From Bacteroidales bacterium (GTDB lineage Bacteria; Bacteroidota; Bacteroidia; Bacteroidales; WCHB1-69), in contig JAGCSI010000146.1 of the NCBI GenBank assembly GCA_017964255.1, positions 5,860-69,859 of the forward strand: DNA of 64,000 bases, written 5' to 3'. A model generated the notes under the pieces. It was given only the letters and a program-made list of their open reading frames with translations. It was not told the DNA's origin and ran no database searches. The translations under genes and the position numbers were made by a program. This document shows positions 3,382 to 50,159 of this stretch, in pieces (positions within the stretch are counted from its first letter, which is position 1; each line of letters begins with the position of its first letter).

Positions 3382-3493
3382 CAATTGACAGTTTTTTTCC
3401 GTTACTTTTCGCTTGATCGAAAAGTAACCAAAAGATCAATCCGACGGTAAGTGCAGCCGCACAGGCCCGTACCCCCCAAACCCATCATTCCCT

Positions 3494-4183
3494 ATGCTAT
3501 TCCCCAAAATAAACCAACTCCTCTCCAATTTCACCGACCATCACTCTCACATCCTGCCGGGGGTGGATGATGGGGTGAAGAAAATGGAAGTATCCCTGCA
3601 AGTGCTGGAAAAGTACGAGCAGTTGGGTATCGCTGAGGTGTGGTGTACGCCGCATACCATGGAAGATATTCCCAATACCACCGAGGAGCTCAAAAGTCGG
3701 TTTGCTGAGCTGTGCGAGGCCTATAAGGGTCCCATCAAGTTGCATCTGGCCTCTGAGTATATGATGGACGGACTTTTCGAGGAACGTTTGGAAGAGGGTA
3801 ATCTGCTGACCTTGGGTGAGGAGGGCAATCAGCTTCTGGTGGAGACTTCCTATTTCACCCCTCCTATCGACATGGATATTATCTTGCGCCGTATCCGACA
3901 AAAGGGATATTTCCCGGTACTGGCGCATCCCGAGCGTTATGTGTATATGAATAAAGATCGTTATCATGAACTCAAGGACGATGGTATTCGTTTCCAGCTC
4001 AACCTCTCTTCCATTGCCGGTGCTTACGGTCCCGATGTCAAAGCCAAAGCCCTCTGGCTCCTCAAAAAGCAATATTACGACCTTGCCGGCTCCGACTTGC
4101 ATTCGCTGAGGAATGTTTCTTTCTGGGAGGCACGTGCTCCTCGAGCCCTACGGAAATTCCTGGCTACGAGCTGTGGGCAATGA
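3494..4183 (+). CDS. cpsB: PHP-family protein-tyrosine phosphatase (CpsB/CapC/Wzh type)
   Basis: 229 aa. It has the N-terminal HSHILPGVDDG motif, followed by CTPH, LAHPERY and GSDLH metal-ligand-like motifs. It lies directly after the tyrosine kinase. Confidence 0.8.
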   Translation: MLFPKINQLLSNFTDHHSHILPGVDDGVKKMEVSLQVLEKYEQLGIAEVWCTPHTMEDIPNTTEELKSRFAELCEAYKGPIKLHLASEYMMDGLFEERLEEGNLLTLGEEGNQLLVETSYFTPPIDMDIILRRIRQKGYFPVLAHPERYVYMNKDRYHELKDDGIRFQLNLSSIAGAYGPDVKAKALWLLKKQYYDLAGSDLHSLRNVSFWEARAPRALRKFLATSCGQ

Positions 4184-4273
4184 GCAATGAGTGATGGTAT
4201 GAAGAAATCACTTCTGAAGGGATAGCTAAAAATTAAAAGATAAACGTAAACAATAATTTGCTATGATTCTATG

Positions 4274-4301
4274 GCTCACAGCTCATAGCTCATAGCTCAC
4301 A
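4274..4301. repeat. Heptamer stutter repeat GCTCAYA x4 (intergenic)
   Basis: The tandem run gctcaca gctcata gctcata gctcaca is read directly, just upstream of ugd. Confidence 0.8.
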
Positions 4302-4318
4302 ACAAACAATAAACAAAT

Positions 4319-5680
4319 ATGAAAATTTCAGTAGCAGGAACAGGCTATGTGGGCATGAGTATTGCCACTCTGCTCTCTCAACACAATGAAGTAACCGCTG
4401 TGGACGTGGTTCCAGAACGAGTTGACATGGTGAACCACAAAAAGTCACCTATCCAGGATGACTATATTGAGGACTTTTTGGCCCACAAACCCCTGACCAT
4501 CAGTGCCACCTTGGATCAAGAGGCGGGCTATCGCGATGCGGACTTTGTGGTCATTGCGGCTCCTACCAATTATGACCCTCAGAAGAATTTCTTCGATACC
4601 TCCGCAGTGGAAGCGGTCATTGATGCTGTGCTGAAGGTCAACCCCGATGCGGTGATGGTCATCAAGAGTACAATTCCGGTGGGATATACCCGTTCGCTGT
4701 ATGTGAAATACCACAAGCAGGGAGCAAAGAAGTTCAACTTGCTTTTCAGCCCTGAGTTCCTGCGCGAAAGCAAGGCCCTGTACGACAACCTTTATCCTTC
4801 CCGTATTATTGTGGGTATTCCGAAAATGATGAAGGGCAAGGATTATGAAGAGGAGAACGAAGCCATCAAAGCCCTCACCGATATCGACTGGATTAGCCAG
4901 AAAGCCCATCAGTTTGCCGACCTCCTCGTCGAAGGTGCTATTGCTCCATCCAAAGACAACTGTCAACTGTCAACTGTCAACTGTCAACTGAACAAGGGCA
5001 TCCCTGTCCTGTTCATGGGCATGAAAGAGGCCGAGGCCGTCAAACTTTTTGCCAACACCTATTTGGCTCTCCGTGTCAGCTACTTCAACGAGTTAGATAC
5101 TTACGCTGAAGTGAAAGGTTTGGATCCGCAGGCTATCATTGAGGGAGTGGGACTCGACCCCCGTATCGGTTCGCATTATAACAACCCCAGCTTCGGCTAT
5201 GGCGGCTACTGCCTGCCCAAGGATACCAAGCAGTTGCTGGCCAATTATGCCGATGTGCCCCAGAACATGATGAGCGCCATCGTGGAGAGCAACCGAACCC
5301 GTAAGGACTTCATTGCCGACCAGGTGCTGAAAATGGCTGGTTACTATGCTTATAGCGAGAATAATCAATTCAAAATTCAAAATTCAGAATTCAAAGTTCC
5401 GACTATCGGAGTGTACCGGTTGACCATGAAATCGAACAGCGATAACTTCCGTCAGTCGGCTATTCAGGGCATCATGAAGCGTATCAAGGCCAAGGGTGCC
5501 GAGGTGATTATTTATGAACCTACTTTGGAAGACGGCAGCACTTTCTTCGGTTCACAGGTGGTGAACGATTTGAACAAGTTCAAAGCTCAGAGCCAAGCCA
5601 TCATCGCCAACCGCTATGATAGTTGCTTGGATGATGTGAAGGAGAAGGTGTATACGAGGGATATTTTCAAAAGAGATTAG
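4319..5680 (+). CDS. ugd: UDP-glucose 6-dehydrogenase (copy 1)
   Basis: 453 aa. It has the N-terminal Rossmann motif [11 protein letters not shown] and the catalytic-region sequence [10 protein letters not shown]. It is highly similar to the second copy at 23720..25075. Confidence 0.9.
4957..4990 (+). repeat. Tandem heptamer CAACTGT x ~4.9 inside the ugd coding sequence
   Basis: The run caactgt caactgt caactgt caactgt caactg is read directly and translates as [12 protein letters not shown]. The same TCAACTR unit recurs in the spacer at 5925-5952. Confidence 0.9.
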
Positions 5681-5954: not shown

Positions 5955-6842
5955 ATGAAAGGTATTGTTCTCGCCGGGGGTTCCGGCACCAGATTATATC
6001 CTATTACTAAGGGAGTGAGCAAGCAGCTCCTGCCCATCTACGACAAGCCGATGGTGTATTATCCCATCAGCGCGTTGATGCTGGCGGGGATCAGAGATAT
6101 TCTGATTATCTCCACCCCGTATGATTTGCCGGGCTTCAAGCGTTTGCTGGGCAACGGCTCCGACTATGGTGTGCATTTCGAGTATGCCGAGCAGCCATCT
6201 CCTGATGGTTTGGCACAAGCTTTTATCATTGGGGAGAAGTTCATTGGTGATGACTGCGCCTGTCTGGTCTTAGGTGATAACATCTTTTACGGTAATGGTT
6301 TTACCTCGTTATTACGCAATGCCGTCAAAGACGCAGAAGAAAACAACAAAGCCACCGTTTTCGGCTACTGGGTAGCCGACCCCGAGCGTTACGGTGTGGC
6401 TGAGTTCGACAAGCAGGGCAATTGCTTGAGTATCGAAGAGAAACCAAAAGAACCCAAGAGCAATTACGCCGTGGTGGGGCTTTATTTTTATCCCAATAAG
6501 GTGGTGGAGGTGGCCAAGACTATCAAGCCGAGCGCAAGAGGAGAGTTGGAGATTACCACCGTCAACCAGCGTTTTCTGGAAGATGGCGAGTTGAAGGTAC
6601 AGACCCTTGGACGGGGATTTGCATGGCTTGACACAGGCACTCACGACAGTTTGGCTGAGGCGTCCACCTTTGTGGAGGTCATTGAGAAACGTCAGGGTCT
6701 CAAGGTGGCATGCCTCGAAGGCATCGCCTACCGCCATGGCTGGATTACCGAAGACAAAATGCGCCAGTTGGCCCAGCCGATGCTGAAGAACCAATACGGG
6801 CAGTACCTGTTGAAAGTGATAGAGGAGTTGAGAGGGGAGTGA
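5955..6842 (+). CDS. rfbA: Glucose-1-phosphate thymidylyltransferase
   Basis: 295 aa. It has the N-terminal [18 protein letters not shown] motif, and LGDNIFYG and [10 protein letters not shown] are typical of RmlA/RfbA. Confidence 0.92.
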
Positions 6843-6957
6843 TGAGCGGTGAGCTGTGAGCAATGAGGTGAGAAGGTTAGGAGGTTAATGTTTAGGGTTT
6901 AGAGTTTAATGGTTAGGAAGGTTAGGAAGGTTATGGATGATGGATTTTGGGTGATGG
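6843..6957. repeat. Stutter spacer of the same family as 661-835, in inverted orientation
   Basis: It contains GGTGAGAA/GGTTAGGA units, TTTAGGG and GGATGATGG. Positions 6883-6904 match the reverse complement of 767-789 with a one-base indel. Confidence 0.8.
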
Positions 6958-7132: not shown

Positions 7133-8167
7133 ATGATAGAGGGTATAACTATAAATAATTTCAGAGGAATCCATACGTGTAAGATTGACGGCTTGTCGCA
7201 GGTGAATCTTTTCTTTGGAAAGAATAATTGCGGTAAGTCATCACTGCTTGAAGCTGTTTTTTTGGTATGTGGACAGTCGAATCCTCTTTTGCCAGCCTCC
7301 ATCAATGCTATGAGAACATATAACCGTATCTCTGAACAAGATATACGCTATTTCTTCTACAAAATGGACATCTCCAGAGAAATTTCTATTTCTACTTATG
7401 GCGGCCAGGAAAGACACCTCGCTATTTCTGCTTTTCAGCAAATGTCCAATGTGGATGTCAACAGCATCTCAACGGAACTTCTTCATCAGTATGGCCTGAA
7501 AATGAGATTCAGCACTAACGAAGGCGAATATAATTCAGAAGTACAATACGATACGCACGATCCTAATAAGATAGAGCAAAAGTCACAGGTTGATTCAAGA
7601 TATGTTGAGAAGTTGAAATGTATGTATCTGAGTCCCCGTTACGACTCAAATGCTTCTTTGGAGGGACTTCAGAATATTTACTTGAACAAAGACGAAGAAT
7701 TTCTCGCCGCGGCATTAAAGCTATTGGAACCGGCAGCCAAAGACCCCGTTTTTATTGAGAACGTTATGCTTGTTGATGTTGGATTGTCACAGAGAATCCC
7801 CATCAATCTTATGGGTGATGGTATCAGAAAGATAGTTTCTTTTTTGACCAGTATCTATGCTTGTCGGGGTGGTGTGGTTCTCTTCGATGAACTCAGTAAC
7901 GGTTTCCATCATTCGGTGATGAAACCTATGTGGGACATTGTGATTCGCGCTGCCGTGAAAAACGATGTGCAGGTTTTTGCCACCACCCACGACGAGGATT
8001 CCATTCGTGGATTCCAACAGGCGGCATTTGATTTTTCAAATGAGAAAGGGAAAGAAGTGGCTTCAGGTTTCAAGCTTCAGAAGATAAAAGACGATGAATT
8101 GAAGGAATATCGCTTCTCAATCAACCAGATTGGTTATGCGATGGAACAGGAAATGGAGATTAGATAG
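7133..8167 (+). CDS. ABC-type (AAA_15/AAA_21-like) ATPase, defence-associated architecture
   Basis: The preferred start is the ATG at 7133 (MIEGITINNFRG) rather than the GTG at 7070. The motifs are Walker A GKNNCGKSS, signature-like MGDGIRK, Walker B VVLFDELSNGFH and H-loop ATTHD. Confidence 0.75.
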   Translation: MIEGITINNFRGIHTCKIDGLSQVNLFFGKNNCGKSSLLEAVFLVCGQSNPLLPASINAMRTYNRISEQDIRYFFYKMDISREISISTYGGQERHLAISAFQQMSNVDVNSISTELLHQYGLKMRFSTNEGEYNSEVQYDTHDPNKIEQKSQVDSRYVEKLKCMYLSPRYDSNASLEGLQNIYLNKDEEFLAAALKLLEPAAKDPVFIENVMLVDVGLSQRIPINLMGDGIRKIVSFLTSIYACRGGVVLFDELSNGFHHSVMKPMWDIVIRAAVKNDVQVFATTHDEDSIRGFQQAAFDFSNEKGKEVASGFKLQKIKDDELKEYRFSINQIGYAMEQEMEIR

Positions 8168-8176
8168 GTAAAAATT

Positions 8177-8809
8177 ATGGTTCAGATTTTTATAGAAGGA
8201 CATGATAAAAAGGTTCCAGAAAGCGAATTCCTCAGTGCGATATTGAAGCATTTAGGTGTGCCTTCTGATAGATATGAGATTATGCCTACCAATGGCTATA
8301 AGAACCTTATGGATTCGGATGATGCATCCAATATAGGGTTAATGCGAGCCAATACTGATGTTGGTGGTAAAAATCTTGTTGTTTTTGATGCTGATACTGC
8401 TGATAATAATGGAGGATACGATGTTAGAAGAAATGAGCTGTTGAAGCGCAAGGAAGAATTGGGATTAGAGTTCGACCTCTTCCTCTGGCCTGATAATAAG
8501 AGTGATGGTGATGTGGAGGTGTTGATGGAAAGTATTGCCAGAAAGGATCTTTACCCCGAGTTCTTTGATTGCTTCGGTAAATATGAACATTGTGTCTCTC
8601 AACGAAAAAACGAAGACGGAAGTTGTTTCTATACTACACCAAACCGAAAGGGAAAACTGCATACCTATTTCAATTCAATTCCTATCTCCAAAATCAAGAA
8701 GAATAAGTTTGGCAGAGGAGAATGGTTATGGGAAGATAAGAATATTTGGAATCTTGATGCCGAATCGCTGAAACCCATCAAGGAGTTCTTGTTATCTAAT
8801 TTAATGTAA
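8177..8809 (+). CDS. Toprim-like small protein (DUF3226/DUF4276/RloB-like class)
   Basis: 210 aa. An N-terminal IFIEG (conserved Glu) and a later VVFDADT (DxD) fit a Toprim-type acidic signature. It lies 9 nt after the ATPase. Confidence 0.5.
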   Translation: MVQIFIEGHDKKVPESEFLSAILKHLGVPSDRYEIMPTNGYKNLMDSDDASNIGLMRANTDVGGKNLVVFDADTADNNGGYDVRRNELLKRKEELGLEFDLFLWPDNKSDGDVEVLMESIARKDLYPEFFDCFGKYEHCVSQRKNEDGSCFYTTPNRKGKLHTYFNSIPISKIKKNKFGRGEWLWEDKNIWNLDAESLKPIKEFLLSNLM

Positions 8810-9732
8810 TGAACGAAAATATTTGGACGGCGCAGGCGGTTGAGACTGCCGTCATTGAAGATAATTCCAATCTCGAAATAATACTCAGCAATTATTTCCA
8901 GACCTTCATTGAGAGGTTAGGCGAATATGAGATTAATATACAGGAGATTACTACTACTGAATTATTGACCCAAAAGATTCTTGAGGGCATTGAGAAGTTG
9001 GAAGTGTTGAGGAAAGAGTTTATTTCGGTGGTGAAAATATTTGTACCAAGCGATAATTCAATCCTTAAACAGTATCTTCCCCGTTTTTTTGATAATTTGC
9101 TTAAATTTTACGAGGAAAAAGGTATTAACCTGTATGCGGGAACCGGTGCCGATGTGCTTCGAAACGATCATTACCGTTTTTTTAATCAGTTTTTGTACAT
9201 ATCACTGACTTCAATTCTATTGGAAAACAAATGTTTTGAGACATTGAAATCCATTCTCCATGCAAAATATCAGGTATATGACAAGGCGTACCAAATTCTT
9301 CGCGATGTCAATTTCATCAGGTTTCGCACTTACAATTATACTTTGAATCAGTTTTTGAATACCACGTCTCCGAAAAGGATAAGTGTAACAGCAGACTATA
9401 TTCGTAATTACTCGGTCCCGTCAGAATTCGAAAAATTAATCAAGGCAGACATATTGCTTTACTATATTTCATTGTGGTATCATATAGACAAAATTTTTAA
9501 TGCTTCGTGGTTTCCCGAATTGAGTGTTTATAACCGAGATGAGCAGATTCTTCCCTATATGAAATCAAGAACTTATTTTGAGAAAGCCAAGGTGCTATTT
9601 GGTGTGAATACAGTGGAGGAGTATAAAAAATTGCTTGAAGACACCCGGGAAAATCCTGATTGGACGGGAATGTATCGTATACCCTTGGTTCAAACAGGTT
9701 TGTTGTATGATACTGTAGGGAGTGTAGAATAG
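8809..9732 (+). CDS. Hypothetical protein, third gene of the ATPase/Toprim-like operon
   Basis: 307 aa. The start overlaps the upstream stop (TAATG). I recognise no motif, and the composition looks helical. Confidence 0.6.
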   Translation: MNENIWTAQAVETAVIEDNSNLEIILSNYFQTFIERLGEYEINIQEITTTELLTQKILEGIEKLEVLRKEFISVVKIFVPSDNSILKQYLPRFFDNLLKFYEEKGINLYAGTGADVLRNDHYRFFNQFLYISLTSILLENKCFETLKSILHAKYQVYDKAYQILRDVNFIRFRTYNYTLNQFLNTTSPKRISVTADYIRNYSVPSEFEKLIKADILLYYISLWYHIDKIFNASWFPELSVYNRDEQILPYMKSRTYFEKAKVLFGVNTVEEYKKLLEDTRENPDWTGMYRIPLVQTGLLYDTVGSVE

Positions 9733-9956: not shown

Positions 9957-10556
9957 ATGAAAACGCAAACAAGATTTCCAAAATATCTACTGTATATCTT
10001 GTCAATGGCACCATTTTTCATCATCCTTGGACTGATGAGTATGGATATTCCAATTTGCTTTGACAATTATGCAGAATTTATTGGCTGGAAAACCCTTTGG
10101 CATAATACACGAGTCGGATTCTTTATCATCTTGGGTTCTGTTTTTGTAGAATTGGTTATTTACTGGATGTTTCAGCGTGTTTGTAAAAGATGTGCTGGTG
10201 AGGCAAGTGAAAAGATAACTGTAATAAAAAATCAAAATTTTGAACTGATGTCATTCGTGACCTCCATATTCCTGCCATTAATTAGCTTTCAATATAACCA
10301 ATTGAGTCACTGGATTGTTACTGCGATTATTGTCTGTTTGATTGGGTATATATTTTGTCACGCAGATGCCTACTATACCAATCCAACGCTTGCGCTTTTT
10401 CGGTATAGGCTATATGATGTTGAACTTGATAACCAACAAGCAAATAATAGCGAAACACGTTCTATCACTATAATAGCTCAATCAGTGCTGATGGTGGGTG
10501 ATAAGGTGCGTTGTGTTTCGATGACCGATGGGGTATCTTATGCTAAAAAAGTATAA
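9957..10556 (+). CDS. Multi-pass membrane protein, KwaA-like by architecture
   Basis: About 199 aa from the ATG at 9957. It has four hydrophobic segments: YILSMAPFFIILGLM, VGFFIILGSVFVELVIYW, LMSFVTSIFLPLISF and WIVTAIIVCLIGYIF. Confidence 0.55.
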   Translation: MKTQTRFPKYLLYILSMAPFFIILGLMSMDIPICFDNYAEFIGWKTLWHNTRVGFFIILGSVFVELVIYWMFQRVCKRCAGEASEKITVIKNQNFELMSFVTSIFLPLISFQYNQLSHWIVTAIIVCLIGYIFCHADAYYTNPTLALFRYRLYDVELDNQQANNSETRSITIIAQSVLMVGDKVRCVSMTDGVSYAKKV

Positions 10557-13357: not shown

Positions 13358-14419
13358 ATGAAGAAAGATAAATATTTGATACGTTTTTTCCAAGTCGGAA
13401 ATGGCACAAAGGGTGGTGACGCTATTCTGATTCGATTGTTTGATGATAAAGATAAAGAACACCTTGTTTTGATAGATGGAGGCTATAAGGAAACAGGAGA
13501 TAAGATAATAAATTATATCAAAGGAACTTGTTCAACCAGCCATATAGATATTGTTTTTAATACACATCCAGACAGAGACCATATATCTGGTTTGGTGACA
13601 CTTTTTGATGATAAAGACATTACGATAGGATGTTTGGTTCTTAACCGTCCTTGGAAGGATGCTAAATTCACCAAGGATATGTTTGACGATAGTAAAATCA
13701 CAGACAGAAGCCTCGTTCAACGTCTCAAAGACAATTTTAATCAAGCCGAAGAATTGGAATCAATCGCCAATGATAGAAAAATTAGAATAGAAAGAGCTTT
13801 TGCCGGTGTGTGTTGTTACGATGGACTTATTAGGGTATTGGGGCCTTCAAAGACGCTTTACGAAAGGGGGCTTTTGGCATCCGACAAAACACCTGAAACT
13901 TATATTGAAGCAGGTTTGGGTGACTATTCACCAGCGGCATATAAAGAGGAGGTTTATGATTCAAGTCAACCGATTGAATGGTTCGATGATGAGCAGACAT
14001 CTGCTGTAAACCAAACAAGTTTTGTTATAGCCTTGGATTTAGGAAAGCAAAAGGTGTTGTTTACGGGTGATGCAGGAAAAGAGGCTCTTAATGATGCATT
14101 AGACTATTATGTGTCAATAGGAGGTAATCCTAAAGATTTCACAATAGTTCAGTTGCCGCACCATGGAAGTAGAAAAAACATAGCCCCATCAATTATCAAT
14201 AGATTTGGCAATCCCGAGTACATTGTGTCATGTCCACCAGATGGTGAAAGCGAGGGCCATCCGTCCAGAAGATTGATGAATAAAATATTAGAGATTAACC
14301 CCAAGGCGGATATTTATTTCACGAAGAAGGTGAACTTTGTTTTCCATGAGAATGTTCCTGTGACAAATTGTGAACCGCAAAAACCGGCAACGGTTTATGA
14401 TAAAATGGATGGGAGATAA
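13358..14419 (+). CDS. Metallo-beta-lactamase-fold hydrolase, ComEC/Rec2-related type
   Basis: 353 aa. It has NTHPDRDHISG (an HxHxDH-like motif) and QLPHHGSRKN, both typical of the ComEC-type MBL domain. Confidence 0.7.
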   Translation: MKKDKYLIRFFQVGNGTKGGDAILIRLFDDKDKEHLVLIDGGYKETGDKIINYIKGTCSTSHIDIVFNTHPDRDHISGLVTLFDDKDITIGCLVLNRPWKDAKFTKDMFDDSKITDRSLVQRLKDNFNQAEELESIANDRKIRIERAFAGVCCYDGLIRVLGPSKTLYERGLLASDKTPETYIEAGLGDYSPAAYKEEVYDSSQPIEWFDDEQTSAVNQTSFVIALDLGKQKVLFTGDAGKEALNDALDYYVSIGGNPKDFTIVQLPHHGSRKNIAPSIINRFGNPEYIVSCPPDGESEGHPSRRLMNKILEINPKADIYFTKKVNFVFHENVPVTNCEPQKPATVYDKMDGR

Positions 14420-14447
14420 AACGACAAATATCAAGATTGTAGACAAA

Positions 14448-14514
14448 CAGCGGCCTTCCGGTATTAACGTGCAGCCGGAGTCGCGATAGGGGTGGGAAGG
14501 TCATCTACACAGCC
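14448..14514 (+). promoter_or_regulatory. Leader RNA motif, copy A (5' half only)
   Basis: It shares the blocks GTGCAGCCGGAG ... TAGGGG ... AAGG ... ACACAGCC with copies at 22187, 23521 and 46544. It lies 31 nt upstream of the epimerase ATG. Confidence 0.45.
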
Positions 14515-14544
14515 TGAATATCCCGACGAAATAAAACTAAAACA

Positions 14545-15801
14545 ATGAATATACTCGTTACCGGTGCGGCCGGGTTTATCGGTGCCAGTTTGGTGATGCG
14601 CCTCCTTCGCGACATGACCGAGGGCACCATCGTCGGCCTCGACAACCTCAACAGCTATTACGATGTCTCCCTCAAGGAGTACCGTCTGAAGAAGCTCGAT
14701 GCGCTCTATGCTCAAAGGATGGGGATTCCGGGTCCAGCCCGGAATGAGGGGACGTGTGTTCGGAATGAGGATTCCTCGTCGAGGGCGAAGACCCGCAATC
14801 TCCATTACGAATTTGTGAAGGGAAGTATTGCCGACCGCGAGCTGGTGAACAAGTTGTTTGAAGAATACAAGTTCGACATTGTGGTGAACCTGGCGGCACA
14901 GGCGGGCGTGCGGTACTCTATTGAGAATCCCGATGTGTATATCGAGAGCAACATCATAGGGTTTTACAATATCCTTGAAGCCAGTAGGCATTCTTACGAC
15001 CTCGTAGACTCCTCGTCGCAGGCGGGAGCCCGCGATCCTAATGCTGTCCCTCATTGCGGGCTTGACCCGCAATCTCAAGGGGATTCCGGCTCGGAGGCCG
15101 GAATGAGGGCTCAAGGCCAGAATGAGGGGTATAAAGGTGTTCAGCATCTCGTGTATGCTAGCAGTTCCAGTGTATATGGCGGCAACAAGAAAGTGCCCTT
15201 CAGCGTGGATGACCGAGTGGATAATCCTGTAAGTTTGTACGCCGCCACCAAGAAAAGCAACGAACTCTTCGCCCACTGCTACAGCAAACTCTACAACATC
15301 CCCACCACCGGCCTCCGTTTCTTCACCGTCTATGGCCCCGCTGGCCGTCCTGACATGGCTTATTTTGGTTTCACCAACAAGCTTCTGAAAGGTGAGACGA
15401 TACAGATATACAACTATGGCAACTGCCGCCGCGATTTCACCTACGTGGACGACATAGTGGAAGGAATTGTAAGAGTGATGCAGAAAGCCCCCGAGAAGCG
15501 TAATGGCGACGACGGCCTGCCGATTCCGCCTTATAAGGTGTACAACATTGGTGGCGGCCAGCCTGAGAATCTATTGGACTTTGTGCAGACTTTGCAGGAA
15601 GAACTGTTGAGAGCAGGTCTCCTTCCGCAGGATTACGATTTCGAGGCTCACAAGCAGCTGGTGCCGATGCAGCCTGGTGATGTACCCATCACGTATGCTG
15701 ACGCTACGGCATTGGAACGTGACTTTGGGTTTACGCCTAAAATTACGCTGAGAGAGGGATTGAGGAAGTTCGCGGAGTGGTATAAAGGATACTATGGTTG
15801 A
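14545..15801 (+). CDS. NAD-dependent sugar-nucleotide epimerase (UDP-glucuronate 4-epimerase-like SDR) carrying two in-frame repeat insertions
   Basis: 418 aa. It has the N-terminal VTGAAGFIG motif and the catalytic YAATK. About 65 extra residues (GIPGPARNEG..., HCGLDPQSQGDSGSEAGMRAQGQNEG) are encoded by GC-rich palindromes. Confidence 0.8.
   Translation: MNILVTGAAGFIGASLVMRLLRDMTEGTIVGLDNLNSYYDVSLKEYRLKKLDALYAQRMGIPGPARNEGTCVRNEDSSSRAKTRNLHYEFVKGSIADRELVNKLFEEYKFDIVVNLAAQAGVRYSIENPDVYIESNIIGFYNILEASRHSYDLVDSSSQAGARDPNAVPHCGLDPQSQGDSGSEAGMRAQGQNEGYKGVQHLVYASSSSVYGGNKKVPFSVDDRVDNPVSLYAATKKSNELFAHCYSKLYNIPTTGLRFFTVYGPAGRPDMAYFGFTNKLLKGETIQIYNYGNCRRDFTYVDDIVEGIVRVMQKAPEKRNGDDGLPIPPYKVYNIGGGQPENLLDFVQTLQEELLRAGLLPQDYDFEAHKQLVPMQPGDVPITYADATALERDFGFTPKITLREGLRKFAEWYKGYYG
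14721..14800. repeat. GC-rich palindromic element(s), in frame inside the epimerase
   Basis: It contains ATTCCGGG-TCCAG-CCCGGAAT-GAGGG (14725-14750), a further CGGAATGAGG half-site and the palindromes GAGGA-T-TCCTC and CCTCG-T-CGAGG. Confidence 0.85.
14996..15132. repeat. GC-rich palindromic element cluster, in frame inside the epimerase
   Basis: It contains CCCTCATTGCGGG-CTTGA-CCCGCAAT, ATTCCGGC-TCGGAG-GCCGGAAT-GAGGG and the half-site GGCCAGAATGAGGGG. Confidence 0.85.
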
Positions 15802-17014
15802 AAGAAATAGTGAAGAAACAAAAAATAGTGTAAATATGGAACTTAAACCTGAAATAGAGAAACAAATTAAAGAACAGCTCGTTGAAAAGGAACAAGTATG
15901 GTCGAAGTATGCTTGTAAATCAAGTGATGCGATTCAGTTTTATCACCGTAAAGAGGATATAAGACCTGCTTTCTTTCATGATGTTGACAAAATCATTCAT
16001 TCTCGCTGTTACAGTAGATACATTGATAAGACACAGGTTTTTTATTTGATAGAAAACGATCATATCACCCATCGTGTTCTCCACGTTCAGTTGGTTTCCA
16101 AAATTGCAAGAACCATTGGTCGGTTTTTAAATCTGAACGAGGATCTAATAGAGGCTATATCCTTGGGACATGATGTTGGACACACTCCTTTTGGACATAA
16201 CGGAGAGAGAATAATTTCGGATTTTTGTGAAAGGAAGGGAGAAGGAATTTTCGAACATAATGTGCAAAGTTTCAGATTGTTTCATGAGATAGAAAAGAAA
16301 GGTGATGGTGTCAACATGTGTGTTCAAACATTAGATGGCATTATTTGTCATAATGGAGAACTTCTGGTACCTCGATTTGATTGTGATAGAACAAAAACAA
16401 AAGAAAAGCTTTTTAGTGAATATACAGAAAGTTTGAAAAACAAAGGAGTTTCTGCTAAAATGAAACCTATGACTTTGGAAGGCTGTGTGATGAGAATATC
16501 TGATATAATCGCATATATTGGTAGGGACATTGAAGATGCAATCAAACTTCAGCTAATAGACAGAAAAGATATTCCTCGTGAAATAACAAAGGTTTTGGGT
16601 GATAATAACAAAGAGATAATCAACAATCTCATAATTGATCTTGTTAATAACAGTTATGGGAATGATTACATTTCATTTTCCACTGAAGTATTTAACGCAT
16701 TGGATGAACTGAAAAAATGGAATAACAAAAACATTTATAGTAATCCTGAAAAAATGGCTCAAGACGATAAGATTAAGAAAATGTTTGATTACATGTTGGA
16801 AACAAATCTTGTATTTCTGAATGAAAATAACACTAAATCTAATATAATCAAATGGTTAGATGGGGAAATGTCACATTCATATATAGATAAATCTTCTAAT
16901 GTACGAATTGTGGCAGATTATGTGTCTGGTATGACAGACGATTATTTAATGAATAGTTATAAAGAATTGGTTCTCCCAAAATCATTCGGTATTAATTTCA
17001 GCAAAAAGGCATAG
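15794..17014 (+). CDS. dGTP triphosphohydrolase-like HD-domain protein (dNTPase)
   Basis: 406 aa. It has HRVLHVQLVS and LGHDVGHTPFGHNGE, the dGTPase-family HD signature. The start overlaps the epimerase stop. The gene is AT-rich. Confidence 0.8.
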   Translation: MVERNSEETKNSVNMELKPEIEKQIKEQLVEKEQVWSKYACKSSDAIQFYHRKEDIRPAFFHDVDKIIHSRCYSRYIDKTQVFYLIENDHITHRVLHVQLVSKIARTIGRFLNLNEDLIEAISLGHDVGHTPFGHNGERIISDFCERKGEGIFEHNVQSFRLFHEIEKKGDGVNMCVQTLDGIICHNGELLVPRFDCDRTKTKEKLFSEYTESLKNKGVSAKMKPMTLEGCVMRISDIIAYIGRDIEDAIKLQLIDRKDIPREITKVLGDNNKEIINNLIIDLVNNSYGNDYISFSTEVFNALDELKKWNNKNIYSNPEKMAQDDKIKKMFDYMLETNLVFLNENNTKSNIIKWLDGEMSHSYIDKSSNVRIVADYVSGMTDDYLMNSYKELVLPKSFGINFSKKA

Positions 17015-46768: not shown

Positions 46769-47635
46769 ATGAATATACTGACATTCGACGTAGAAGAATG
46801 GTTCCACCTTCTCGATTTCGATGCCACTCGCACCGAAGCCGACTGGGGGAAGTATGAGGTGAGGATACATGAGAATGTGGAACGCGTGTTTCGAATCCTG
46901 GAAGACACGAATACCAAGGCTACTTTTTTCATCATTGGCTGGATAGCGAAAACCTACCCCGAACTGGTAAAGAAAATAGCTGAGAAGTATCAGATTGGTT
47001 CGCACACGATGACGCATCAATTGGTATGGCAACAGAGTAGGGAAGCGTTCAAAGAGGATGTATCGGCTTCCATCAAACTGTTGGAAGACATTAGCGGTAA
47101 AGCTGTGGAATGTTTCCGGGCTCCGGGATTCTCTATTAGGGAGAGCGAAGCATGGGCTTTTGAAACGCTGGCGGAACTTGGGATAAAGTACGACAGTAGC
47201 GTTTTTCCTGCTCCAGCCTCGCATGGGGGAATGCCAAGTTATGGTGCGGCGGTGCCATCGATAATGGAGGTTGGCGGTGTGCAGATGAAGGAATTCCCTA
47301 TTCCGTATCACTCTTTTGCAGGCCGACATATCGTCTTCAACGGAGGTGGTTATTTCCGTCTGATGCCCTATCGTATCATCAGGAAGTGGACGAAGGAGAT
47401 CGCGGGTCAAGCCCGCGATGAGGGTTATTGTCTGAGTTACATTCATCCTCGTGACCTGGATGCCGGTCAACCTATGTTGGAAGGCCTTCCCGCCACCCGT
47501 AAGTTCAAGAGTTACGTTGGCTTGAAAGGCGCAGAAAACAAGCTACGGAAGTATTTGACGGAATTTGGGTTTATGGATATTGCCACGGCAGAGAAATTGG
47601 TGGATTGGAAGAATGCACCGGTGGTGCAATTATGA
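46769..47635 (+). CDS. Polysaccharide deacetylase family protein (DUF3473-type C-terminus)
   Basis: The ATG at 46769 is preferred (MNILTFDVEEWFH). HTMTH is also present. It carries an in-frame palindromic insert (EIAGQARDEG). Confidence 0.8.
   Translation: MNILTFDVEEWFHLLDFDATRTEADWGKYEVRIHENVERVFRILEDTNTKATFFIIGWIAKTYPELVKKIAEKYQIGSHTMTHQLVWQQSREAFKEDVSASIKLLEDISGKAVECFRAPGFSIRESEAWAFETLAELGIKYDSSVFPAPASHGGMPSYGAAVPSIMEVGGVQMKEFPIPYHSFAGRHIVFNGGGYFRLMPYRIIRKWTKEIAGQARDEGYCLSYIHPRDLDAGQPMLEGLPATRKFKSYVGLKGAENKLRKYLTEFGFMDIATAEKLVDWKNAPVVQL
47396..47424. repeat. Palindromic element GAG-ATCGCGGG-TCAAG-CCCGCGAT-GAGGG, in frame in the deacetylase
   Basis: This 29-mer is identical to 49569-49597 in fnlB and is read in the same frame in both genes. 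Confidence 0.95.
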
Positions 47636-47662
47636 GATTGCGGGTCTTTGCCCGCGATGAGG
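47634..47662. repeat. Palindromic element, intergenic copy abutting the deacetylase stop codon
   Basis: The sequence is GAG-ATTGCGGG-TCTTTG-CCCGCGAT-GAGGT, and it overlaps the TGA at 47633-35. Confidence 0.9.
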
Positions 47663-47701
47663 TAGAACAGTGATAAAAACAAAAATAATAAAAAATATTA
47701 A

Positions 47702-48794: not shown

Positions 48795-50159
48795 ATGAAA
48801 ATACTAGTTACCGGAGCCAAAGGCTTTGTGGGTAAAAACCTTTGTGCCCAATTAAGGAATATCAGGGATGGCAAAGCCCGGAATTATGCCGTGCAAATTG
48901 AGGAGATTTTCGAGTACGACATTGATTCCACACCAGAGGAATTGGAACTGGCCTGCCGAGAGGCGGACTTTGTATTCAACCTCGCCGGGGTGAACCGTCC
49001 GAAGGAAACCTCTGAGTTTATGGCGGGCAACTTCGGCTTTGCCTCTACTTTGCTTGATACTTTGAAGAAGCACGGCAATAAGTGCCCAATCATGCTCAGC
49101 AGTTCGCAGCAGGCAAGTCTGACGGGACGATTCGGGAATTCCGAATATGGAAGAAGTAAAAAAGCCGGAGAGGATCTCTTCTTGGAGTACGAAAGGGAGT
49201 TTTTGCAAGCAGCTCCTCATGCCGCAGTTGATGCGGCATCTCCAGGAGATTGCGGGTTTTCGCCCGCAATGAGGGATCAAGCCCGCGATGAGGGATTAAG
49301 ACCTCGTGTCTTAATCTACCGTTTCCCGAACCTTTTTGGCAAGTGGTGCCGGCCCAATTATAATTCCGCGGTGGCCACCTTCTGCAACGCTGTGGCGAAC
49401 GATTTGCCTTATACGGTGAATGATCCGTCTGTGGAACTGGAACTTCTGTACATTGATGACCTTGTGGAAGAAATGATTGCCTGTCTGCAGGGAAAGGAGC
49501 ACAGATGTGAGTTTGAAGGGCTGGAAGTAATCCCGACTCCTCATGCCGGACTTGATGCGGCATCTCCTGAGATCGCGGGTCAAGCCCGCGATGAGGGAAT
49601 AAACGTGGGCCGCTATTGTTACGTGCCAACCACCCACAAGGCTACTTTGGGTGAGATTGTGGATTTGCTGAATTCCTTTGCGGCACAGCCGTCAACGCTG
49701 ATGATTCCCGAGATTCCCGCCAACAGTTTTGCAAAGAAACTGTACTCTACATATCTCTCCTATTTGCCTAAGGAGAAGGCCGCCTTTCCGCTGAAGATGA
49801 ACGTAGACGACCGTGGCTCATTCACAGAGCTGGTGCATACGCCCAGTTGCGGTCAGGTGAGCATCAACATTTCCAAGCCCGGCATCACCAAGGGCCAGCA
49901 CTGGCATCACACCAAATTCGAGCAGTTCATTGTGGTAAAGGGTCATGGCCTGATTCAGCAACGTAACCTCAACGACCCTGAGGGCAAGATTTTGGAATGG
50001 GAGGTGAGCGGCGACAACATCCAGGCGGTTCACATGCTCCCGGGATACACCCACAACATCATCAACCTCAGTGACACCGAAGATCTTGTCACTGTCATGT
50101 ATTGCAACGAGATTTTCGATCCCAATAAACCGGATACATTTTTTGAAAAAGTTAAATAA
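48795..50159 (+). CDS. fnlB: FnlB/Cap5F/WbjC-type reductase (SDR plus C-terminal cupin) with two in-frame repeat insertions
   Basis: 454 aa. It has the N-terminal KILVTGAKGFVGKN and a C-terminal cupin region (GITKGQHWHHTK). About 60-85 extra residues are encoded by palindromic elements. Confidence 0.8.
   Translation: MKILVTGAKGFVGKNLCAQLRNIRDGKARNYAVQIEEIFEYDIDSTPEELELACREADFVFNLAGVNRPKETSEFMAGNFGFASTLLDTLKKHGNKCPIMLSSSQQASLTGRFGNSEYGRSKKAGEDLFLEYEREFLQAAPHAAVDAASPGDCGFSPAMRDQARDEGLRPRVLIYRFPNLFGKWCRPNYNSAVATFCNAVANDLPYTVNDPSVELELLYIDDLVEEMIACLQGKEHRCEFEGLEVIPTPHAGLDAASPEIAGQARDEGINVGRYCYVPTTHKATLGEIVDLLNSFAAQPSTLMIPEIPANSFAKKLYSTYLSYLPKEKAAFPLKMNVDDRGSFTELVHTPSCGQVSINISKPGITKGQHWHHTKFEQFIVVKGHGLIQQRNLNDPEGKILEWEVSGDNIQAVHMLPGYTHNIINLSDTEDLVTVMYCNEIFDPNKPDTFFEKVK
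49215..49294. repeat. Composite palindromic element, in frame in fnlB (insert A)
   Basis: It reads CCTC-ATGCCGC-AGTTGAT-GCGGCAT-CTCC, then ATTGCGGG-TTTTCG-CCCGCAAT-GAGGG, then the half-site TCAAG-CCCGCGAT-GAGGG. Confidence 0.9.
49539..49597. repeat. Composite palindromic element, in frame in fnlB (insert B)
   Basis: It reads CCTC-ATGCCG-GACTTGAT-GCGGCAT-CTCC, then ATCGCGGG-TCAAG-CCCGCGAT-GAGGG. Confidence 0.9.

What the first reader, a model, noticed from the sequence alone, without database searches (positions are those of the whole stretch)
14721..15132. GC-rich palindromic repeats inserted in frame into the epimerase add about 65 residues without breaking the ORF
Seen in sequence: two blocks (14721-14800 and 14996-15132) consist of units of the form AT(T/C)(C/G)CGG(G/C)-loop-(G/C)CCG(G/C)(A/G)AT-GAGGG, e.g. 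ATTCCGGG-TCCAG-CCCGGAAT-GAGGG. They translate as GIPGPARNEG... and HCGLDPQSQGDSGSEAGMRAQGQNEG, which interrupt otherwise canonical SDR sequence. The first sits between the N-terminal Rossmann region and HYEFVKG, and the second sits just before the catalytic-Ser region VYASSSSVYG. The same repeat family occurs in two other genes and in one spacer (47396, 47634, 49215, 49539). Established knowledge: Rickettsia palindromic elements are the classic case of selfish palindromic repeats that insert in frame into protein genes. I am not aware of an equivalent description for Bacteroidales. Inference: this is a mobile or recombinogenic hairpin element tolerated as surface loops. The mRNA hairpins could also modulate translation or stability.
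Basis: partly seen in the sequence, partly recalled or inferred. Interest (0 to 1): 0.65.

Follow-up and report, generated by a model that had tools for sequence, protein, structure and literature searches.

The report
Hairpin repeats translated inside an epimerase
Two stretches of a sugar-nucleotide epimerase gene in an uncultured rumen Bacteroidales bacterium are clusters of a small selfish-looking DNA hairpin repeat read in frame as floppy loops; this is a new family of a phenomenon already known from REP and Rickettsia palindromic elements.

Summary
ORF 14545-15801 (418 aa, UDP-glucuronate-4-epimerase-like SDR) carries two in-frame blocks: 14722-14802 (27 aa) and 15001-15129 (43 aa). Both are built from ~30-nt hairpin units, GGAG-AT-stem6-TCAAG-stem6-AT-GAGGG, in both orientations, plus "half units".

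A covariance model finds 9 strong copies in the window; 8 lie inside three polysaccharide genes. The exact 26-mer core occurs in at least 120 rumen metagenome contigs. Most of those copies are intergenic, often within a ~95-nt three-hairpin composite. About 13% sit deep inside real genes (SodB, WecB, GT4, MFS, KAS and others).

Insert-free orthologs exist, and 5u4q aligns with breaks exactly at the two blocks. Both sites are helix-to-strand loops with low pLDDT. The gene is under purifying selection (dN/dS 0.085).

In the 120 closest orthologs the same two sites are hypervariable and hold several unrelated repeat families. In one Prevotella ortholog the site-1 insert is the palindrome that brackets a nearby Y1 (RAYT-like) transposase gene.

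Verdict: a REP/REPIN-like, RPE-like element tolerated in loops. The family itself is undescribed, but the kind is known (Di Nocera 2013, Quentin 2018).

The parts
14545..15801 (+). Host gene: extended-SDR nucleotide-sugar 4-epimerase (UDP-glucuronate 4-epimerase-like), 418 aa, intact ORF
   Evidence: ORF. Pfam Epimerase E=3.9e-49. PDB 5u4q E=5.6e-101. Foldseek TM 0.83 to 5u4q and 0.84 to 6zl6. dN/dS 0.085 against L201.
14720..14751 (+). Site 1, forward hairpin unit GGGG-ATTCCGGG-TCCAG-CCCGGAAT-GAGGGG, read as GIPGPARNEG
   Evidence: R1 45.1 bits, E=1e-12. Perfect 8-bp stem.
14752..14771 (+). Site 1, half unit (loop plus right arm plus foot): ACGTGTGTTCGGAATGAGGA
   Evidence: 12-mer hit TCGGAATGAGGA. 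Direct repeat D1/D2.
14772..14804 (-). Site 1, decayed reverse unit ..CGAAGA-CCCGCAAT-CTC. Orthologs L001 and L204 hold a perfect reverse hairpin here (VIAGSTRNL).
   Evidence: R1 12.7 bits, E=0.094. Codon alignment. R1 hits in L001 and L204.
15007..15037 (+). Site 2, decayed reverse-type unit GACTCCTCGTCGCAGGCGGGAGCCCGCGATC, 74% identical to 14770-14800
   Evidence: Family D3. Not detected by R1.
15047..15078 (-). Site 2, reverse unit CCCTC-ATTGCGGG-CTTGA-CCCGCAAT-CTC, read as PHCGLDPQSQ
   Evidence: R1 47.1 bits, E=2.2e-13.
15078..15110 (+). Site 2, forward unit GGGG-ATTCCGGC-TCGGAG-GCCGGAAT-GAGGG. With the preceding unit it forms an inverted (REPIN-like) doublet.
   Evidence: R1 46.4 bits, E=3.7e-13. 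Fold z=-2.8 for the whole block.
15110..15129 (+). Site 2, half unit CTCAAGGCCAGAATGAGGGG. It lies at the position of the right half of the single unit in orthologs P0049 and L099.
47394..47425 (+). Single forward unit in frame (EIAGQARDEG) in the polysaccharide deacetylase gene 46769-47635
   Evidence: R1 50.6 bits. The empty allele L205 has CAG TGC GGC AAT instead.
47632..47664 (+). The only intergenic copy in the window. Its 5' foot overlaps the TGA stop of the deacetylase.
   Evidence: R1 36.7 bits. Sequence.
49213..49294 (+). FnlB-like gene (48795-50159), insert A: reverse unit 49213-49244, forward unit 49244-49276, half unit 49276-49294
   Evidence: R1 42.3 and 43.7 bits..
49537..49598 (+). 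FnlB-like gene, insert B: inverted doublet, reverse 49537-49568 plus forward 49567-49598 (PHAGLDAASPEIAGQARDEG)
   Evidence: R1 37.4 and 45.5 bits. Ortholog L200 lacks this insert.

Best explanation
The two blocks are clusters of a dispersed, REP/REPIN-like family of ~30-nt GC-rich DNA hairpins. The consensus is GGAG-AT-NNCGNN-TCAAG-NNCGNN-AT-GAGGG. The stems vary but stay complementary.

In rumen Bacteroidales the family lives mainly between genes. It occurs there as single units, as inverted doublets, or as a ~95-nt three-hairpin composite.

Copies that arrived in two permissive helix-to-strand loops of the epimerase persisted for three reasons. They keep the reading frame. They avoid the two frames that contain TGA. 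They encode short hydrophilic, disordered peptides (EIAGQARNEG and PHCGLDPQSP).

The clusters then grew by adding neighbouring units and by tandem duplication of the 3' half. They are exchanged between strains by homologous recombination through the conserved flanks. The enzyme stays functional.

Shown here: the repeat nature, the dispersal, insertion relative to orthologs, presence/absence polymorphism, the loop location, and purifying selection.

Inferred, not shown: that the inserts are translated, and that spread is catalysed by a single-strand HUH/Y1 (RAYT-type) transposase acting on the hairpin.
For: Repeat family and dispersal:
- Unit anatomy and 9 strong model hits in the window.
- At least 120 metagenome contigs hold the exact 26-mer, in 105 distinct contexts. 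Of these, 29 are the ~95-nt composite, next to unrelated genes in the cases examined, and 9 are doublets. The composite folds as a three-way junction, z=-7.
- When copies are selected by the flanks alone, 88 have perfect 6/6 stems despite at least 16 different stem sequences.
- K-mer depth over 15012-15113 is 30-60x that of the flanks.

Copies inside real genes:
- 14 copies lie deep in long ORFs. Nine were scanned against Pfam and eight match families: SodB, M15 peptidase, GT4, cytidylyltransferase, WecB, MFS, KAS and a Polysacc_synt_2 enzyme. The others include epimerase and FnlB-like orthologs.
- Only 4 of the 6 frames are open. Intragenic copies use two of them, 8:3:0:0, exact p~0.001.

Insertion relative to orthologs:
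- Firmicutes orthologs and many Bacteroidales orthologs lack the inserts. Orthologs with HHP at site 2 have no site-2 insert; those with LVPEGIN or AKPAGIN at site 1 have no site-1 insert.
- 5u4q aligns in three pieces, broken exactly at the inserts.
- In the AF2 model (pLDDT 80) the inserts are mostly low-confidence coil; the first ~10 residues of the second insert are modelled as a helix. They lie between H41-59 and E85-92, and between H129-149 and E201-206.

Selection and turnover:
- dN/dS is 0.085.
- Filled and empty deacetylase alleles share 93-97% identical flanks.
- A 97%-identity tract, 14722-14901, sits inside an otherwise 82-88% identical gene pair.

Transposase precedent in a relative: the site-1 insert of ortholog L014 is the palindrome that brackets both sides of a Y1_Tnp gene (NHVH / YIHQNP) about 3 kb away.
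Against: - The units have no GT[AG]G or CGTC tag.
- No Y1/RAYT gene lies in the 64-kb window or next to the units in the ~125 loci scanned.
- The two Y1-like genes seen in those loci: L116's is flanked by a different repeat, and none of these units flanks L139's.
- None of 150 representative homologs of the L014 Y1 protein carries unit-encoded peptides.
- The family is absent from the REP table of Quentin 2018.
- No target-site duplication is seen. The deacetylase insertion replaces 12 nt with 30 nt.
- Translation of the inserts is inferred only from frame conservation. No RNA run was found.
Confidence: 0.8

Rival explanations
1. There is no transposase. The hairpins arise and spread by replication template-switching or slippage at palindromes, and by short-patch gene conversion from other copies, seeded by microhomology at permissive sites.
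For: - Tandem half units (loop + right arm + foot) sit next to full units in the window and in several metagenome loci.
- The empty deacetylase site holds AGTGCGG, which resembles the left arm.
- The change at that site is a replacement (12 nt to 30 nt) with no target-site duplication.
- A recombination tract covers site 1.
- No cognate transposase was found.
Against: The same ~95-nt composite with near-identical sequence sits beside unrelated genes in several contigs. That pattern is easier to explain by transposition. A related Prevotella shows a transposase gene bracketed by the very palindrome that is inserted in its epimerase.
Confidence: 0.13
2. The intragenic hairpins are selected cis-acting elements of polysaccharide operons, such as mRNA stabilisers, pause sites or recombination signals. 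They are not merely tolerated passengers.
For: In the window and in the loci of relatives, 15 of 16 strong copies lie inside polysaccharide-biosynthesis genes. By my own reading of the gene products, about 9 of the 14 deep intragenic metagenome copies are in sugar-nucleotide or surface-polysaccharide genes. The hairpins are stable, with z from -3.3 to -3.7.
Against: - Close orthologs do without them or carry unrelated repeats at the same site.
- The units decay in place (14772-14804, 15007-15037).
- No Rfam family matches.
- There are no expression data.
Confidence: 0.05
3. The segments are ancestral variable loops or low-complexity expansions of this enzyme family, or assembly artefacts.
For: The two sites vary in length in nearly all close orthologs.
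Against: - Identical 26-mers occur in unrelated intergenic DNA and in other genes.
- Insert-free orthologs are common.
- Independent metagenome assemblies carry the same junctions.
Confidence: 0.02

Closest known systems
REP / REPIN / BIME elements and their RAYT (TnpA-REP) transposases (Di Nocera et al. 2013, PMC3733652; Quentin et al. 2018, PMC6006769; Nunvar 2010 and Bertels & Rainey 2011, recalled from memory)
   Same: - 20-40-nt GC-rich hairpins with conserved feet and family-level stem variation.
- Single units, inverted doublets and clusters.
- Mostly extragenic, with a minority lying wholly inside ORFs in frame. Di Nocera reports intragenic dimers of 20-30 aa, clusters of 43-82 aa, and different REPs at the same recB site in two Xanthomonas species.
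- Termini that supply stop codons.
   Different: - No 5' GT[AG]G or CGTC tag. The feet are GGAG...GAGGG.
- The two units of a doublet have different stems.
- Tandem half units are frequent.
- The cognate RAYT was not identified.
- The host is rumen Bacteroidales.
- The sequence is absent from the REP table of Quentin 2018 and from the full-text library.
Rickettsia palindromic elements (RPE; Ogata et al. 2000/2002, as cited in PMC3733652)
   Same: Palindromic repeats are inserted in frame in many unrelated, apparently functional protein genes as well as between genes. The encoded peptides recur in a preferred frame.
   Different: From memory, RPEs are longer (about 100-150 bp for RPE-1) and belong to an obligate intracellular alphaproteobacterium. 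Here the unit is ~30 nt, the inserts are clusters of 2-4 units, and the sites turn over rapidly between strains.
Atypical hairpins flanking TnpA-Y1 subclass 2.6 genes of Bacteroidetes (Quentin et al. 2018)
   Same: These are Bacteroidetes hairpins that lack GT[AG]G, flank a Y1 gene with NH[LIV]H / YIH[QN]NP motifs, and have further copies elsewhere in the genome. This arrangement is seen in ortholog locus L014, whose palindrome is also inserted at site 1 of the epimerase.
   Different: The L014 palindrome (CTGACAGGGGACAGGTACCTGTCAG) is a different family from the one in the window. No such gene was found next to the window's family.
Small dispersed repeats of cyanobacteria (Elhai et al. 2008; recalled from memory, not checked here)
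   Same: These are very small (about 21-27 nt) mobile repeats that nest in one another and occur inside coding sequences.
   Different: The phylum and the sequences are different. The mechanism is equally unknown.

Membership tests
REP/REPIN (RAYT-mobilised) | Short (20-40 nt) GC-rich imperfect palindrome forming a stable hairpin | tested here: met
   8-bp stems with 5-6-nt loops. DNA folds have z from -3.3 to -3.7.
REP/REPIN (RAYT-mobilised) | Many dispersed copies, predominantly extragenic | tested here: inconclusive
   At least 120 metagenome contigs hold the 26-mer, and 57 of 105 contexts look intergenic. In the window itself 8 of 9 copies are intragenic.
REP/REPIN (RAYT-mobilised) | Conserved 5' GT[AG]G (or CGTC) tetranucleotide at the foot | tested here: not met
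   The consensus is nGGAGAT...ATGAGGGn, with no GTAG or CGTC on either strand.
REP/REPIN (RAYT-mobilised) | Inverted doublets (REPINs) or clusters | tested here: met
   Adjacent reverse + forward pairs lie at 15047-15110, 49213-49276 and 49537-49598. 29 composite and 9 compact doublets were found among 105 contexts.
REP/REPIN (RAYT-mobilised) | Cognate Y1/RAYT gene flanked by the same repeat (REPtron) | tested here: inconclusive
   None was found in the window or in ~125 loci. None appeared among 150 representative homologs. The organism's genome could not be searched. A REPtron-like unit exists for another family in L014.
Rickettsia palindromic elements | In-frame insertion in functional protein genes, with recurring encoded peptides | tested here: met
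Rickettsia palindromic elements | Sequence or lineage membership (Rickettsiales RPE-1 to RPE-8) | not tested
   No RPE sequence was compared here. The host is Bacteroidales, judged from the best hits, and the unit is only ~30 nt.
MITE | Terminal inverted repeats plus target-site duplication; 70-300 bp | tested here: not met
   Single units are ~30 nt. No target-site duplication is seen in the filled-versus-empty pair. Only the ~95-110-nt composite has MITE-like inverted ends.
Intron / intein (removed insert) | Group I/II intron RNA structure or intein splicing motifs | tested here: not met
   Rfam finds nothing in 14400-15900 even at E<=1. The inserts are 27 and 43 aa of low-complexity peptide.

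The most novel reading that the evidence does not exclude
Certain helix-to-strand loops of conserved sugar-nucleotide enzymes in rumen Bacteroidales act as standing "landing pads". At least four or five unrelated short-repeat families colonise, overwrite and exchange these loops again and again. The families include this hairpin family, a RAYT-linked palindrome, heptamer tracts and others. The hairpin family described here would have adapted to this intragenic niche: it is open in 4 of 6 frames, is used almost only in the two hydrophilic frames, and forms compact doublets without the central hairpin. On this reading, coding sequence is a genuine habitat for the element, not an accident.
Probability: 0.25. 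Interest if true: 0.6.

Novelty: new member of a known kind. Interest (0 to 1): 0.4.

Why it matters
The case extends in-frame colonisation of working genes by selfish hairpin repeats to abundant, uncultured rumen Bacteroidales. The family involved lacks the canonical GTAG tag. This phenomenon was previously known from Rickettsia and from REP-rich Proteobacteria.

There are practical consequences:
- These repeats inflate and diversify protein lengths.
- They break assemblies. Unitigs end at the repeats.
- They generate recurring pseudo-motifs such as EIAGQARNEG and PHCGLDPQSP in protein databases.

Scientifically, the hypervariable sites offer natural filled/empty pairs. These can be used to study how much loop insertion an SDR enzyme tolerates, and how such elements move.

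Tried and rejected
- Rfam at gathering and E-value thresholds: no family matches the inserts or the composite.
- RNA sequencing runs: none listed, so transcription and translation are untested.
- Viral contigs: no exact 26-mer.
- First AF2 model from 25 close sequences: too poor (pLDDT 52). Repeated with 82 sequences (pLDDT 80).
- Search for a cognate Y1/RAYT by motif and by tblastn in all loci. Only L014 and L027 (2.6-like) and L116 and L139 (another type) turned up. L014, L027 and L116 are bracketed by other repeats; none of these units flanks L139's gene.
- 150 representative homologs of the L014 Y1 protein: none contains unit-encoded peptides.
- Supplement of Quentin 2018: no matching REP.
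- Full-text search for the sequence or its peptides: nothing.
- Target-site duplication: none seen.
- The pair count on alignment A3 is not independent evidence, because those units were selected for perfect stems. It was replaced by the flank-only test.
- Ancestral-loop, artefact, intron and intein readings were all rejected (see rival explanations and membership test).
Full report
**What is there.** ORF 14545-15801 (+) encodes an unbroken 418-aa protein.
- It matches Pfam Epimerase PF01370 at E=3.9e-49.
- Its best solved relative is the NAD-dependent epimerase 5u4q of Klebsiella (E=5.6e-101).
- A model built from 82 sequences (pLDDT 80, pTM 0.83) superposes on 5u4q and on the Bacillus cereus UDP-glucuronate 4-epimerase 6zl6, with target-normalised TM 0.83-0.84.
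- In a relative's locus the gene follows a UDP-glucose dehydrogenase gene. This fits a UDP-GlcA 4-epimerase.

**Anatomy of the inserts.** Both blocks are built from one ~30-nt unit.
- Forward form: GGAG-AT-[6-nt stem]-TCAAG-[complementary stem]-AT-GAGGG.
- Reverse form: CCCTC-AT-...-CTTGA-...-AT-CTCC.
- Site 1 (14722-14802, 27 aa): a forward unit, a "half unit" (loop + right arm + foot), and a decayed reverse unit.
- Site 2 (15001-15129, 43 aa): a decayed reverse-type unit, a perfect reverse unit, a forward unit directly abutting it (an inverted doublet), and a half unit.

A covariance model built from 39 variants finds nine strong copies in the 64-kb window (E<=7e-10) and one marginal copy.
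- Three lie in the epimerase.
- One lies in a polysaccharide deacetylase.
- Four lie in an FnlB-like gene, as two inverted doublets.
- One lies in a spacer, where it overlaps the deacetylase TGA stop.

The blocks are 62% G+C against 51% for the rest of the gene.

**More than chance, and not an artefact.**
- The 12-mer foot occurs 14 times against 3.6 expected, and 0 of 100 shuffles reach 14.
- Contigs from several independent bovine and gut metagenome studies carry the same sequence across the junctions. A diverged strain (19 differences in 557 nt) keeps both inserts.
- Summed k-mer depth over 15012-15113 is 30-60 times that of the unique flanks, and unitigs break at the repeats.
- The exact protein stands for six contigs.

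**A dispersed family.** These give 105 distinct contexts:
- 29 are a conserved ~95-nt composite: a reverse unit with stem GGCGGA, a central hairpin, and a forward unit with stem TGCGGG. It sits next to unrelated genes in the cases examined. It folds into a three-way junction, -29.7 kcal/mol, z=-7.
- 9 are compact doublets.
- The remaining 67 are single units.

By ORF context, 57 look intergenic, 34 lie near ORF ends, and 14 lie at least 60 codons inside long ORFs. Nine of the 14 were scanned against Pfam and eight matched:
- Fe/Mn superoxide dismutase
- M15 peptidase
- GT4 transferase
- a cytidylyltransferase-domain enzyme
- UDP-GlcNAc 2-epimerase
- an MFS transporter
- a ketoacyl synthase
- a Polysacc_synt_2 enzyme

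The others include epimerase and FnlB-like orthologs.

I then selected copies by their flanks alone and excluded the 26-mer used for retrieval. Of these, 88 have perfect 6/6 stems although at least 16 stem sequences occur. The hairpin is therefore conserved, not the stem sequence.

**Insertions, not ancestral loops.** The alignment with 5u4q falls into three pieces:
- Query 1-51 aligns to chain 4-52.
- Query 89-150 aligns to chain 58-119.
- Query 199-417 aligns to chain 121-335.

The two gaps are the two blocks. Orthologs from Firmicutes and many from Prevotellaceae have 44-50 residues across site 1 and 11 or 17 across site 2. The window has 75 and 58.

Among the 120 closest homologs (at least 72% identity), about 20 have no site-2 insert (HHP) and about 23 have none at site 1. 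The rest carry a remarkable variety (the classification is a rough regex one):
- peptides of this hairpin family in several frames and orientations (QEIAGQARNEG, TPHCGLDPQSP, LIAGEDPQSP, EIPHQVRNEG, VIAGSTRNL)
- heptamer-type tracts (TLNSKLSTLNY)
- MDDVRCKMDG
- a 52-aa type
- others

The boundaries are constant: ...HS(Y/K)D | insert | Y(K/Q)G VQHLV.

The nearest relative (P0002/L201) shares site 1 almost base for base. At site 2 it holds an unrelated heptamer-type insert.

Identity to L201 is 97% over 14722-14901 and 82-88% on either side. This marks a recombination tract that carries the site-1 insert.

The deacetylase gives a clean filled/empty pair with 93-97% identical flanks. CAG TGC GGC AAT in the empty allele is replaced by GAG ATC GCG GGT CAA GCC CGC GAT GAG GGT. 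There is no target duplication. That site is also hypervariable among orthologs.

**Tolerated and probably translated.**
- dN/dS against L201 is 0.085 at dS about 1.
- In the model, the site-1 insert is low-confidence coil between helix 41-59 and strand 85-92. The site-2 insert lies between helix 129-149 and strand 201-206; its first ~10 residues are modelled as a short helix (152-160) and the rest is low-confidence coil.
- In a Rossmann fold, helix-to-strand connections lie on the face opposite the cofactor site. This is established knowledge; I did not measure it on coordinates.
- The FnlB-like insert A likewise precedes a strand, by my reading of the sequence.
- The unit has a TGA in one forward and one reverse frame. 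Of the four open frames, intragenic copies at 11 independent gene sites use EIAGQARNEG (8) and PHCGLDPQSP (3) only (exact p about 0.001, small sample).
- Units with 6-nt loops switch frame in the loop and so avoid the stop.
- All orthologs keep the frame whatever the insert length. Frame conservation argues that ribosomes read through.
- No RNA or protein data were available.

**How it spreads.** This step is inferred. The closest mechanistic model is REP/REPIN mobilisation by HUH/Y1 (RAYT) transposases acting on single-stranded hairpins.

Support comes from a relative. In Prevotella sp. Tb.RUG.398 (L014), the site-1 insert of the orthologous epimerase consists of the palindrome CTGACAGGGGACAGGTACCTGTCAG. 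The same palindrome brackets both sides of a Y1_Tnp gene about 3 kb downstream and occurs in two other nearby places. That gene has NHVH and YIHQNP motifs, the motifs of subclass 2.6 of Quentin 2018, which is "mostly present in Bacteroidetes" and "flanked by atypical secondary structures". In Prevotella sp. MA2016 (L027) a homologous gene, bracketed by 27-nt inverted repeats, lies directly after the epimerase.

For the window's own family I found no cognate gene:
- None lies in the window or the ~125 loci.
- The L116 Y1-like gene is flanked by a different 38-nt repeat, and none of these units flanks the L139 gene.
- None of 150 representative homologs carries unit peptides.
- The organism's genome could not be searched.

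Half units, the replacement-type junction and the recombination tract show that local duplication and homologous exchange also shape the clusters. A transposase-free origin remains a live rival (about 0.13).

**Comparison with what is known.** Di Nocera et al. 2013 (PMC3733652) report REPs wholly inside ORFs in several species. More than half are dimers or groups encoding 20-30 aa, and clusters encode 43-82 aa. Different REPs lie at about the same recB site in two Xanthomonas species, and REP termini provide stop codons. Quentin et al. [quoted passage not shown] RPEs are the classic case.

The present family fails the GT[AG]G/CGTC feature. It is absent from Quentin's REP table, from Rfam and from the full-text library. 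It is therefore an undescribed family of a described kind.

Earlier notes of this scan report similar in-frame REPs in this and other rumen genomes. I treated them as leads only.

**Verdict.** This is a new member of a known kind, of moderate interest. The most interesting residue is the "landing-pad" behaviour of specific loops and the frame bias of the family.

Noticed in passing
L014:5157-5290, 7308-7380, 8469-8575, 9190-9262, 10096-10230; Y1 gene L014:9297-10088: In Prevotella sp. Tb.RUG.398 the palindrome CTGACAGGGGACAGGTACCTGTCAG brackets a Y1_Tnp gene (NHVH / YIHQNP, Pfam E=8.9e-09). The same palindrome is inserted in frame (DRGQVPVSP...DRYLSPVR) at site 1 of the orthologous epimerase. 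This is a REPtron-like unit with an intragenic copy 4 kb away.
   Followed up: partly
L027:6053-6079 and 6908-6934, around Y1 gene 6113-6904: In the cultured Prevotella sp. MA2016 a homologous Y1 gene lies 75 nt after the epimerase gene. It is bracketed by 27-nt inverted repeats that are 96% complementary ("TIRtron"-like). Partial copies of the gene lie at 1621-1758 and 8606-8683.
   Followed up: partly
L116:3165-4085 (-) with repeats at about 3040-3160 and 4100-4440: A 306-aa Y1-like gene (SNHLHIIL, YVQMNC; 51% identical to L139:7092-7964) is flanked by arrays of a 38-nt repeat, GCGCCTAACGTCCCGGGGNTGGGGACGAYGGGAGCGTT. There are 6 copies on one side and 2 on the other. It looks like another candidate REPtron with a different repeat.
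   Followed up: no
metagenome loci such as L151, L095, L091, L112, L127: A ~95-110-nt three-hairpin composite element with inverted ends GCCTTTTACCCTCAT...ATGAGGGTTAAAGGC lies beside unrelated genes (miaA-like, ATP synthase gamma-like, lipoproteins). It is the main intergenic form of the family, and Rfam has no match.
   Followed up: partly
window 47632-47664: The deacetylase stop codon TGA is formed at the junction with the 5' foot of a hairpin unit (TTA TGA GAT TGC GGG). The close relative L206 lacks this unit and has a different C-terminus.
   Followed up: partly
orthologs P0006, P0007, P0014, L001 and others, at epimerase sites 1 and 2: Many orthologs carry in-frame heptamer-type tracts (ACTCTAAACTCTAAAC..., read as TLNSKLSTLNY) or MDDVRCKMDG-type tracts at the same two sites. 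These match the 7-8-nt tandem spacer repeats noted earlier for this genome.
   Followed up: partly
L201:1061-3495: In the closest relative's contig, UDP-glucose dehydrogenase appears as separate N/central and C-terminal ORFs (1061-1816 and 3241-3495). Two ORFs lie between them, one a SocA/Panacea-domain ORF. This may be a gene split by an insertion.
   Followed up: no
L087 (524-aa ORF): An ORF with no Pfam match carries at least three unit-derived peptides (NPHCGQGPAIP, GIAGQARNEG, LIAGKDPRSP). It is the most heavily colonised gene seen.
   Followed up: no
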